This document shows, piece after piece, positions 43,316 through 44,796 of a stretch of DNA of 64,000 nt (within the stretch, counting starts at the first letter, position 1; every line of letters begins with the position of its first letter). Source of the DNA: Longimicrobiales bacterium. GTDB taxonomy: Bacteria; Gemmatimonadota; Gemmatimonadetes; Longimicrobiales; Gaopeijiaceae. The notes beneath the pieces were generated by a model that was not told the origin of the DNA, did not search any database, and saw only the letters and a list, made by a program, of their open reading frames with translations. The stretch covers positions 416,001 to 480,000 of the forward strand of contig OZ241869.1 in the NCBI GenBank assembly GCA_965202805.1, written 5' to 3'. The position numbers and the translations under genes are program-made.

Positions 43316-43395
43316 CCTGGCCTCCTTTCGGTTCGGGCGCGCATATCATAGCTGCGGGGTGCGGTGTTTGACAATTCCCGGTGTTCATCCCCAAA

Positions 43396-43455
43396 TTTCA
43401 TTTGGACGAACTCTATTCTTTCATTTGGACGACCTCCTGTCCTGCGTTTGGACGA
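43396..43455 (+). repeat. Three direct repeats at 23-bp period upstream of the AAA gene
   Basis: TTTCATTTGGACGA (43396, 43419) and CTGCGTTTGGACGA (43442); TTGACA at 43368. Confidence 0.9.
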
Positions 43456-44705
43456 TGATCGACACCACCCTGTATCCCCGTTTCGTCGAGCCGCATCTGC
43501 TCGAAGCGCTCGCCGACTCGCCGGCCGTCCTGATCCACGGGCCCCGCCAGTGCGGGAAGACCACGTTGGCGCAGATCGTGGGAGCGTCGCGCGGATACAG
43601 GTACGTCACTTTCGACGACGACGTGGTGCGCGCCGCCGCCGAGGAGGATCCGCTGGGATTCGCCGCCGGCCTCCCCGCGCGCGTCATTCTGGACGAGGTG
43701 CAGCGAGCGCCTTCGCTGTTCACCGCCCTCAAGATGGAGATCGACCGGCGGCGCACCCCCGGCCGATTCCTGCTCACCGGCTCCACGCACGTGCTCCTGG
43801 TGCCGCGACTCGCGGAGTCGCTGGCTGGTCGGCTTCAGACGCTCCGGCTCCATCCGCTGGCGCAATGCGAGCTGGAACAGCGTGACTCCGATTTCCTGGA
43901 TGGCCTGTTTGCGGCCCGGTTCGCGATCGAACACACCGCCCGGCTGGGCGACCATCTTCCGGCTCGCATCGTCGCGGGCGGGTATCCCGCCGCGCTCACC
44001 CGTCCGCCGGGACGTCGGAGGGCCAACTGGTACAACGATCACGTCGATGCCCTGGTCCAGCACGATGTGCGCGACCTCGCGAGCATCCGGAAGCTCGAGA
44101 TCCTGCCGCGGCTGCTCGCCGGCGCCGCCAGCCAGACCGCGAGGATATTCAACGCGAGTGATCTGGCCGCGCCGTTCGAGGTGAGTCGGCCCACGATACG
44201 CGACTACACGACGCTGCTTGAGCGGGTATTTCTTCTGGAGCGCGTTCCGGCCTGGCACAGCAACCGCTTGAGCCGGCTCATCAAGCGGCCGAAGTTGCAC
44301 CTGTCCGATACGGGAATCGCCGCCGCGCTTCTCGGCCTGGACGGTCCGGCTCTGGCGTACGACCGCAGCCTGTTCGGCCAGCTTCTCGAGACCTTCGTGT
44401 TCCAGGAACTTCGGCGACAGGCCAGCTGGAACGATGCGCGCATGTCCCTGCACCACTTCCGTGACAAGGACGGGGCGGAGGTCGACATCGTGATCGAGCG
44501 TGGCGCTACCGGGGTCGCGGGCGTCGAGGTGAAGGCGTCGGGAACGGTGCGCACAGGGGACTTTCGCGGTCTCCGCAAGCTCCGCGAGGCGTTGCGCGAG
44601 CGATTCGCCGGCGGGGTGGTTCTGTACGATGGGGAAGCCACGGTACCGTTTGGCGACCGGCTGTTTGCGGTGCCGTTGCGGCGGATGCTGGAGGGCGCGG
44701 ATTAG
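43455..44705 (+). CDS. AAA_14 ATPase with DUF4143 and C-terminal PD-(D/E)XK-like nuclease domain
   Basis: Walker A GPRQCGKTT, Walker B ILDEVQ, LLTGS, ESLAGR, GGYP, KRPKLHLSDTG, EVDIVIE...EVK. Confidence 0.92.
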   Translation: MIDTTLYPRFVEPHLLEALADSPAVLIHGPRQCGKTTLAQIVGASRGYRYVTFDDDVVRAAAEEDPLGFAAGLPARVILDEVQRAPSLFTALKMEIDRRRTPGRFLLTGSTHVLLVPRLAESLAGRLQTLRLHPLAQCELEQRDSDFLDGLFAARFAIEHTARLGDHLPARIVAGGYPAALTRPPGRRRANWYNDHVDALVQHDVRDLASIRKLEILPRLLAGAASQTARIFNASDLAAPFEVSRPTIRDYTTLLERVFLLERVPAWHSNRLSRLIKRPKLHLSDTGIAAALLGLDGPALAYDRSLFGQLLETFVFQELRRQASWNDARMSLHHFRDKDGAEVDIVIERGATGVAGVEVKASGTVRTGDFRGLRKLREALRERFAGGVVLYDGEATVPFGDRLFAVPLRRMLEGAD

Positions 44706-44736
44706 GCCATCCGTGGCGTCGGATGCCGCCTTGGTT

Positions 44737-44796
44737 TTTCGTTTGGACGAATACCAAACTTTCATTTGGACGGGACTGTTTCTTTCATTTCGCCGA
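44737..44796 (+). repeat. Three direct repeats at 23-bp period downstream of the AAA gene
   Basis: TTTCGTTTGGACGA (44737), TTTCATTTGGACGG (44760), TTTCATTTCGCCGA (44783). Confidence 0.9.

What the first reader, a model, noticed from the sequence alone, without database searches (positions are those of the whole stretch)
43368..44796. AAA+/DUF4143/nuclease gene bracketed on both sides by 3 x 23-bp-phased direct repeats: candidate single-gene mobile or self-targeting cassette
Seen: a 14-bp core TTTCATTTGGACGA occurs three times upstream (43396, 43419, 43442, the last ending on the A of the start codon) and three times downstream (44737, 44760, 44783). Both triplets have an exact 23-bp period, the same orientation and variable 9-bp linkers, and I did not notice the motif elsewhere in the window. 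A TTGACA at 43368 places the upstream triplet over the probable promoter. The gene lies antisense inside a minus-strand run (Tat aminotransferase, DAACS, peptidase), like an insertion. Known: AAA_14/DUF4143 proteins combine an ATPase with a C-terminal PD-(D/E)XK-like domain and are poorly characterised; arrays of about 22-bp binding sites occur at Tn7 ends and in plasmid iterons. Inference: upstream sites alone would fit autorepression, but a matching downstream array suggests defined cassette ends bound by the protein itself, for excision/mobility, DNA looping or defence. No transposase or integrase is adjacent.
Basis: partly seen in the sequence, partly recalled or inferred. Interest (0 to 1): 0.82.

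Follow-up and report, generated by a model that had tools for sequence, protein, structure and literature searches.

The report
Second operator array behind defence nuclease
A very common but untested candidate anti-phage ATPase-nuclease gene normally carries evenly spaced DNA repeats only in front of it, but in two genera of sponge-associated bacteria it also keeps a matching set behind it, which likely serves as a second docking site for its own protein rather than as the end of a jumping element.

Summary
The two 23-bp-phased triplets are real, but the 14-mer is exact in only 2 of 6 units. The gene is an intact AAA_14+DUF4143 (PADLOC PDC-S01) ATPase-nuclease. The upstream array is family-wide (two or more boxes in 80 of 80 genome loci, phased in 78 of 78 metagenome loci) and likely overlaps the gene's own leaderless promoter; this scan has reported such upstream arrays many times on other DNA. 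The downstream array is the new part: phased in 28 of 34 members of one clade (two genera), 0 of 122 outside it, with boxes conserved (0.8 identity) while linkers and spacer have randomised (0.25-0.3). It is not a neutral relic. It does not behave like transposon ends: the gene is single-copy, shows no target duplication or terminal repeats, moves no more than its hotspot neighbours, and gene-less alleles are ragged deletions, not array-by-array excisions. Best reading: a likely auxiliary operator that loops or titrates the protein. Open lead: deletion ends in decayed alleles fall beside boxes more often than chance (6 of 29, hand-counted, biased), so the protein may cut next to its own sites.

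The parts
43345..43374 (-). Not part of the cassette.
   Evidence: -10 region kept in relatives with and without the ATPase gene
43396..43409 (+). Upstream box 1 (14/14)
43419..43432 (+). Upstream box 2 (14/14); its TTCATT sits at the likely -35 position of the gene's own promoter
   Evidence: TTCATT/TTCAAT/TGCAAT at this place in clade and distant relatives
43442..43455 (+). Upstream box 3 (11/14), ending on the A of ATG; likely -10 element (TGCGTT here, TACATT/TACGTT/TACAAT in most relatives), 6 nt before ATG, so a likely leaderless start
43455..44705 (+). AAA_14 + DUF4143 ATPase-nuclease, 416 aa, PADLOC candidate PDC-S01; Walker A (G29-T36), Walker B (D80, E81), R126, and PD-(D/E)XK residues D344, E358, K360 intact
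   Evidence: dN/dS about 0.1 across 13 pairs
44184..44207 (+). Codons 244-251 (SRPTIRDY), predicted recognition helix of a helix-turn-helix-like segment
   Evidence: helices 234-237 and 245-259 followed by a strand in the model (pLDDT about 65 here); near-invariant in 81 relatives that share the box, different in 4 paralogues with other boxes; HTH_11 weak in 5 of 70 members
44706..44736 (+). Spacer between stop and first downstream box; length conserved, sequence randomised across the clade
44737..44750 (+). Downstream box 1 (13/14)
44760..44773 (+). Downstream box 2 (13/14)
44783..44796 (+). Downstream box 3 (12/14)
43331..44734 (.). Segment missing in four gene-less genus relatives and in one contig of run X4: DAACS promoter, upstream array and gene are gone, and boxes remain at the junction
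   Evidence: (table 5c)

Best explanation
This is an intact PDC-S01 (AAA_14 + DUF4143) ATPase-nuclease gene whose protein likely binds its own 13-14-bp box: the upstream triplet likely represses the gene's own promoter, and the downstream triplet, conserved only in this two-genus clade, is likely an auxiliary operator that would dock more of the same protein and bridge to the promoter array to tighten repression. Shown: both arrays and their phasing; the family-wide upstream array; the clade-limited downstream array; selection on its boxes and on its distance from the gene end; intact catalytic residues; single copy per genome. Inferred: that the protein binds the box (helix-box co-variation); that boxes 2 and 3 hold the -35 and -10 (23 bp = 6 + 17, ATG 6-8 nt later); that AAA+ oligomerisation links the two arrays across about 1.3 kb by looping, or that the second array simply titrates protein; that the purpose is to hold a potentially self-toxic defence nuclease silent. 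The second array probably arose as a duplicate of the promoter array and was then kept (inferred).
For: Upstream: two or more boxes in 80 of 80 genome loci and phased boxes in 78 of 78 metagenome loci with room; last unit reads TACATT/TACGTT/TACACT in 27 of 34 clade and TACAAT/TACGAT/TACACT in 36 of 47 distant loci, 16-17 nt behind a TTCATT/TTCAAT/TGCAAT-type hexamer. Downstream: phased in 28 of 34 clade loci, at least one box in 33 of 34; with a matrix trained only on distant upstream sites, 26 of 33 and 31 of 33; 0 of 47 distant genome loci and 0 of 75 distant metagenome loci. The clade is one branch (SH-aLRT 100, quick tree). In the most diverged pairs box identity is 0.80 and 0.78 against linker 0.30, spacer 0.25 and four-fold sites 0.56 (194 pairs), with dS up to 1.26. 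A box sits 61-65 nt after the invariant P407 codon in 26 of 34. Downstream boxes mostly lack the A of the -10 form (0 of 69 against 13 of 78 upstream). Four paralogues in the same genome have their own 22-23-bp upstream arrays with other motifs and other helix sequences, and no matching downstream array. Fold: AAA+ core, nearest solved proteins SSO1545 and PAB2304-type archaeal ATPases (Foldseek E 1e-5, 5e-4; TM only 0.21), Cdc6/Orc1 weaker. Arrays that titrate and handcuff an autorepressing initiator are described for Vibrio ori2 (PMC6090056, passages).
Against: No binding, expression or looping data. A 1.3-kb loop should need little helical phasing, so the fixed spacing is not well explained by looping. 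The -10 is degenerate in the window allele (TGCGTT) and box 3 is lost in one close relative. Boxes persist in gene-less genomes (4 in the window's genus, 6 of 27 in the sister genus), which may be recent loss or may mean another role. Six of 34 clade members have no phased downstream pair. The HTH assignment is weak (5 of 70 at E up to 0.05; fold searches tested only residues 1-132). The 34 loci are kin, not independent events: the downstream array was probably gained once.
Confidence: 0.5

Rival explanations
1. Self-targeting nuclease: the protein binds a box and its C-terminal PD-(D/E)XK domain cuts in the neighbouring linker (type-IIS-like offset), with two arrays in cis favouring cleavage, so the gene between them is repeatedly cut out or eroded.
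For: Three decayed alleles with different right-hand partners (gene positions about 1167, 442, 933) all break 3-8 nt after upstream box 2 (G433, G185, G299; G431 probably shares G299's event). Two other junctions end 2-5 nt before a downstream-type box 1, the same phase in the 23-bp register (G299/G086, and the G014/G011/G017/G004 group). 6 of 29 hand-tallied ends lie within 8 nt of a box, 1.3-1.5 expected, binomial p 0.002-0.003. One genome (G166) has a second site with an inverted array and no gene. Linkers diverge faster than the spacer in close alleles (0.38-0.49 against 0.64, 8 alleles). Catalytic residues are intact.
Against: Most relics were found through their arrays, which favours ends near boxes; the two found through gene fragments lost both arrays and only 1 of their 7 ends is at a box edge. 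23 of 29 ends are not near boxes. Fork stalling at a tightly bound protein array, or lingering selection on boxes, would give the same scars without cutting. A self-destroying layout sits badly with purifying selection up to dS 1.26.
Confidence: 0.17
2. Roadblock or insulator: protein bound to the downstream array blocks transcription between the ATPase gene and its usually convergent neighbour.
For: The downstream neighbour is convergent in 20 of 26 loci that could be called (GC3 heuristic); no conserved terminator hairpin on either side (mean z -0.1 and +0.35, 28 loci).
Against: 6 of 26 neighbours are co-oriented; a roadblock would not need a fixed distance from the gene end; distant relatives manage without it.
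Confidence: 0.12
3. The arrays are the ends of a single-gene mobile cassette that excises and reinserts using its own ATPase and nuclease.
For: 15 upstream and 15 downstream flank classes among 34 clade loci, several slots in one region plus unrelated loci; gene present in about half of the genomes of both genera; array-short-array remnants resemble internally deleted elements.
Against: Single copy in all 36 genomes that have it; no target duplication (longest shared word 5.6 against 5.7 in shuffled pairings) and no terminal inverted repeat; neighbour turnover like other hotspot genes; gene diverges in step with the DAACS neighbour where both are present; remnants sit at the same slots as intact alleles; no array-by-array empty site among the relics; no array-to-array or circle joint in contigs of 8 runs (contigs drop rare forms); 1 distant hit in viral contigs.
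Confidence: 0.1
4. The downstream array is a functionless leftover promoter of a deleted tandem paralogue.
For: Same orientation and motif as the promoter array; some downstream arrays end in a GTCGATG like upstream ones (sequences); orphan arrays occur.
Against: Boxes stay at 0.8 identity while the spacer beside them is at chance level; what follows the array differs and is mostly convergent. It may explain the origin but not the retention.
Confidence: 0.06
5. The arrays act as RNA (guide array, structured RNA or terminator).
For: Repeat-plus-variable-linker layout; a weak terminator-like match before downstream box 1 in the window (2 found against 1.7 in shuffles).
Against: No Rfam match; no fold beyond shuffles across 28 loci; 9-10-nt linkers, a period equal to promoter geometry, and only 2-4 units.
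Confidence: 0.03

Closest known systems
PADLOC phage-defence candidate PDC-S01 (Pfam AAA_14 + DUF4143; COG1373)
   Same: Best model PDLC04790, E 3e-161 over residues 5-412; single gene, ATPase fused to PD-(D/E)XK domain; described as the fourth most common defence candidate, with validation pending for most such candidates (PMC12988326, passages).
   Different: The passages and listings I saw mention no DNA arrays. This clade adds a selected downstream array that 122 distant relatives lack.
Iteron replicons with control arrays (Vibrio ori2-min/ori2-inc, PMC6090056 passages; P1 oriR-repA-incA and F ori2-repE-incC, recalled)
   Same: Phased direct repeats about two helical turns apart, one set at the protein's promoter, a second set that titrates or handcuffs; in P1 and F the two sets bracket the gene (recalled).
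   Different: Chromosomal, single copy, no AT-rich unwinding element (AT at most 0.51 per 100 nt), far from the GC-skew turning points at 0.83 and 2.85 Mb; the protein is an AAA+ nuclease, not a Rep.
Auxiliary operators that act by looping (lac O2/O3, gal OI, deo, lambda OL-OR; recalled)
   Same: A second operator set beyond the promoter bound by the same oligomeric repressor.
   Different: Repressor here would be an AAA+ ATPase-nuclease regulating only itself; looping untested.
Archaeal AAA+/winged-helix ATPases SSO1545 (2fna), PAB2304 (2qen) and Cdc6/Orc1 (2qby)
   Same: Top Foldseek matches (E 1e-5, 5e-4, 3e-3); Pfam ATPase_2 weak in 41 of 70 members.
   Different: TM-scores only about 0.2; this protein adds a PD-(D/E)XK domain.
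Tn7-family ends (arrays of about 22-bp TnsB sites; recalled)
   Same: Arrays of phased sites on both sides of a gene; AAA+ ATPase present.
   Different: Arrays are direct, not inverted; no terminal repeat, no target duplication, no DDE transposase among the 10 ORFs scanned.

Membership tests
PDC-S01 / AAA_14+DUF4143 | AAA_14 and DUF4143 above curated cut-offs in one protein | tested here: met
   84.1 and 155.9 bits against 27 and 28.1; 70 of 70 aligned members
PDC-S01 / AAA_14+DUF4143 | Match to PADLOC PDC-S01 model over the full length | tested here: met
   E 3e-161, residues 5-412
PDC-S01 / AAA_14+DUF4143 | Intact Walker A/B, arginine finger and PD-(D/E)XK residues | tested here: met
   G29, G34, K35, D80, E81, R126, D344 invariant; E358, K360 in 90% or more of 70
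PDC-S01 / AAA_14+DUF4143 | Anti-phage activity | not testable with these tools
   candidate status only (PMC12988326; bioRxiv 2024.01.29.577857, passages)
Self-bound operator array | Box sequence tracks the protein's DNA-reading helix | tested here: met
   helix near-invariant in 81 relatives sharing the box; different in 4 paralogues with different boxes; few independent contrasts
Self-bound operator array | Helix-turn-helix domain in the protein | tested here: inconclusive
   helix-turn-helix-strand order at 234-263 in the model, pLDDT about 65; HTH_11 in 5 of 70; fold searches covered only residues 1-132
Self-bound operator array | Direct binding, repression, looping | not testable with these tools
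   needs EMSA and reporters
Transposon / Tn7-like element | Terminal inverted repeats | tested here: not met
   arrays are direct; outer flanks 6.07 against 5.87 +/- 0.15 in shuffled pairings (28 loci)
Transposon / Tn7-like element | Target-site duplication | tested here: not met
   5.64 against 5.75 +/- 0.16; old insertions could have lost it
Transposon / Tn7-like element | Multiple near-identical copies or recent new sites | tested here: not met
   one intact copy in 10 of 19 and 26 of 53 genomes
Site-specific excising cassette (integron- or att-like) | Clean empty site with one hybrid array; circular form | tested here: not met
   relics are ragged deletions; no such joint in contigs of 8 runs, which drop rare forms
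Iteron replicon | AT-rich unwinding element, Rep-family protein, origin signature | tested here: not met
RNA-guide array (CRISPR- or TIGR-like) | Known or structured repeat RNA | tested here: not met
   expression could not be tested

The most novel reading that the evidence does not exclude
PDC-S01 proteins are sequence-specific nucleases that cut in the linker beside their own 23-bp-phased boxes, and this clade has placed its gene between two such arrays, so that the bound complex both silences the gene by bridging the arrays and, once triggered, cuts the gene out of the chromosome: a single-gene defence module with a built-in self-deletion switch.
Probability: 0.17. Interest if true: 0.85.

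Novelty: new variant of a known kind. Interest (0 to 1): 0.52.

Why it matters
PDC-S01 is among the most common predicted defence genes in prokaryotes and has no mechanism. This clade supplies a natural experiment: the same box, the same predicted recognition helix, with and without a second array, plus a set of decayed alleles whose ends point at the linkers. That gives a defined DNA substrate and two sharp tests (does a distant array tighten repression; does the nuclease cut beside its boxes). If the looping reading holds, it is an iteron-like control circuit on a defence gene. If the cutting reading holds, it is a new self-targeting nuclease behaviour.

Tried and rejected
Rfam scan of 42800-45300: no match. 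NCBIfam: none. PDB by sequence: only P-loop-level matches. Single-sequence fold failed (pLDDT 34); the 70-row fold reached 78.8, but both VIA searches tested only residues 1-132, so the HTH and nuclease folds were not compared. The dimer prediction and the profile search of protein representatives were not available, so oligomer state is untested. No RNA holder was listed. Contigs of 8 runs showed no array-to-array or circle joint; contigs drop rare variants. Helical-phase test of the array distance is confounded by fixed gene length and kinship and was not used. Conserved terminator hairpin: none. Origin of replication: no support. The array at genome position 1952126, behind another paralogue, has a different motif from that paralogue's 5' region and reads as an upstream-type array on the other strand before a short ORF with no detectable family match; not counted as a second double-array case. 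The 50-70-nt pieces between the two arrays in G011 and G004 match nothing held except each other's 3' part and one downstream spacer; left out of the breakpoint count, as was the inverted array of G166. Literature: full-text searches for DUF4143 (4 papers), PDC-S01 (7, 6 listed), AAA_14+repeats+upstream+nuclease (15, unrelated), COG1373+ATPase (7), STAND/REase/transposon (3), Crinkler/REase (1), guilt-by-embedding (54, 10 listed) and AAA+/direct repeats/autorepression (1) showed no account of these arrays in the listings or passages seen. A 2016 paper proposing NTPase+REase genes as transposons is recalled only; it was not held. bioRxiv supplements (PDC tables of 2024.01.29.577857) could not be seen and may describe PDC-S01.

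Full report
Observation. The six units exist at the stated places, on one strand, in exact 23-bp steps within each triplet. The 14-mer is exact at 43396 and 43419 only; the others match at 11, 13, 13 and 12 of 14. Chance is excluded: 5 window matches with up to 2 mismatches against 0.04 in shuffles, and all 4 genome matches with up to 1 mismatch lie here. The gene (43455-44705, 416 aa) is AAA_14 + DUF4143, PADLOC PDC-S01, with intact ATPase and PD-(D/E)XK residues and dN/dS near 0.1 in 13 pairs. The TTGACA at 43368 is better read as the other strand of the DAACS promoter's -35.

The upstream array is a family trait. Of 80 related loci from the genome collection (the best 80 of 203, 62-97% identity, many phyla) all 80 carry two or more boxes upstream, and 78 of 78 metagenome loci with room carry phased boxes (best 80 of 445). 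The last unit usually has a TANNNT-type hexamer 16-17 nt behind a TTCAWT/TGCAAT hexamer and 6-8 nt before ATG, so the 23-bp period equals sigma-70 spacing and the array likely is the gene's own leaderless promoter and operator (inference). The window's genome holds 21 DUF4143 matches; four paralogues have their own 22-23-bp upstream arrays with other motifs and other sequences in the predicted recognition helix, whereas 81 relatives that share this box share SRPTIRDY almost unchanged. Eight earlier notes of this scan describe such upstream arrays on other DNA; I reproduced the pattern here from my own loci.

The downstream array is limited to one clade and is under selection. It is phased in 28 of 34 loci at 75% identity or more, with at least one box in 33 of 34, and in 0 of 47 distant genome loci; with a matrix trained only on distant upstream sites the figures are 26 and 31 of 33 against 0 of 47. 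In the metagenome set, 2 of 77 loci have it and both belong to the clade (84% and 93%), leaving 0 of 75. The clade is one branch with SH-aLRT 100 in a quick tree of 81 proteins and covers two genera of one family; record titles and run labels point to sponge-associated Gemmatimonadota. In the 194 most diverged pairs the boxes keep 0.80 and 0.78 identity while the linker is at 0.30, the preceding 20 nt at 0.25 and four-fold sites at 0.56; a box lies 61-65 nt after the invariant P407 codon in 26 of 34 loci. None of the four array-bearing paralogues has a matching downstream array. A look-up of earlier notes for a downstream array found none. The 34 loci are kin, so this is probably one gain kept over dS up to 1.26, not many events.

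Is it a mobile cassette? The gene sits in 15 upstream and 15 downstream flank classes among 34 loci, mostly in different slots of one variable region, with a few unrelated sites. But other genes of that region change neighbours as often (0.57-0.95 against 0.72; 21 regions centred on this locus). Each genome has one intact copy or none: 10 of 19 and 26 of 53, and phased arrays occur at that one place, apart from a second inverted array in G166 and one doubtful 1-mismatch match. There is no target duplication or inverted terminus in 28 loci. Empty alleles exist, but they are not array-by-array products. In four genus relatives the DAACS promoter, upstream array and gene are gone and boxes begin right after the DAACS ribosome-binding region; these four fall in two separate groups on trees of both neighbours, and one contig of run X4 shows the same junction. 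Two more have no array. In the sister genus 6 of 27 gene-less genomes keep arrays around eroded gene fragments at the usual slots. Contigs of 8 runs gave no array-to-array or circle joint.

A lead toward self-targeting. Three decayed alleles with different partners inside the gene break 3-8 nt after upstream box 2 (G433, G185, G299), and two junctions end 2-5 nt before a first downstream-type box, the same phase of the 23-bp register. By hand, 6 of 29 junction ends lie within 8 nt of a box against 1.3-1.5 expected (p 0.002-0.003). Against this: most relics were found through their arrays; the two found through gene fragments lost both arrays and only 1 of their 7 ends is at a box edge; G355 has a purely internal deletion; the inner junctions of G011/G004 and the inverted array of G166 were left out because no intact counterpart defines them. 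Stalled forks at a bound array would leave like scars.

Mechanism. Most likely (0.5) the protein binds the box through its helix-turn-helix-like segment, oligomerises through the AAA+ domain along the phased boxes, represses its own promoter, and in this clade uses the second array as an auxiliary operator by looping or titration, as inc iterons do for an autorepressing initiator (Vibrio ori2, PMC6090056 passages; P1 and F recalled). The model (pLDDT 78.8) is nearest to SSO1545/PAB2304-type ATPases, with Can2/Card1 nuclease-bearing chains also listed, at low TM-scores. Rivals: cutting beside its own boxes (0.17), roadblock against the usually convergent neighbour (20 of 26; 0.12), true mobile cassette (0.10), neutral relic (0.06), RNA role (0.03).

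Known and new. The protein family is catalogued and untested: PMC12988326 (passages) calls PDC-S01 the fourth most common defence candidate; bioRxiv 2024.01.29.577857 (passages; S01 not named in the main text; supplements not seen) defines the PDC set; PMC3424549 (passage) lists DUF4143 as unknown; PMC4406477 and two 2026 preprints (passages) mention it only in passing. My searches showed no account of the arrays. The upstream array is a repeat within this scan; the selected downstream array and the breakpoint pattern are the additions. Verdict: real, new variant of a known kind, interest 0.52.

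Noticed in passing
G000:C1 upstream of 2364169 (-), 2094916 (-), 1319563 (+), 3289882 (+); outside the window: Four paralogues each have a private 22-23-bp phased array upstream with its own motif and none downstream.
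   Followed up: yes
G000:C1:1952126-1952200: Four 23-bp-phased units just behind another DUF4143 gene; on the minus strand they end in GGCCGCTATG like this family's promoter arrays, before a 34-codon ORF with no detectable family match. Possibly an orphan array.
   Followed up: partly
G000:C1:1306884 and 3317913: Two further 23-bp-phased triplets with other motifs, not beside a DUF4143 gene; the first precedes an ORF that looks like an ATP-dependent helicase C-terminal fragment (by eye).
   Followed up: no
L231:9263-9298 (G166): A second copy of the S9 peptidase flank followed by an inverted two-box array and then the usual downstream flank, without the gene, 10 kb from the intact cassette.
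   Followed up: partly
L064, L067, L078, L082, L085, L086, L098, L102: Distant relatives with only an upstream array are often bracketed by 50-200-bp duplications of host sequence (hsdM 5' part, a tRNA-like end, gene ends), as in two earlier notes of this scan.
   Followed up: no
L100:3372-3395, L102:855-878: Two-box arrays 2-3 kb away from distant relatives, with no second full gene detected.
   Followed up: no
L039, L042, L046, L047, L049, L054-L056: In several clade members the reading frame runs 7-18 codons further, up to or into the downstream array, while the box position stays fixed.
   Followed up: partly
window 40455-41086, 46190-46872, 50768-51487: The surrounding region is a variable spot with several toxin-antitoxin-type pairs (PIN, Fic/Doc with MazE-type partner by Pfam; a third pair by eye) and many permuted accessory genes, including other DUF4143 paralogues in relatives.
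   Followed up: partly
window 34655-38893: 1412-aa secreted-looking protein with Ig-like and leucine-rich repeats (by eye, not scanned).
   Followed up: no
L023, L026 (G014, G017): Deletion removes the DAACS promoter, leaving DAACS directly behind the aminotransferase with only boxes between them.
   Followed up: partly
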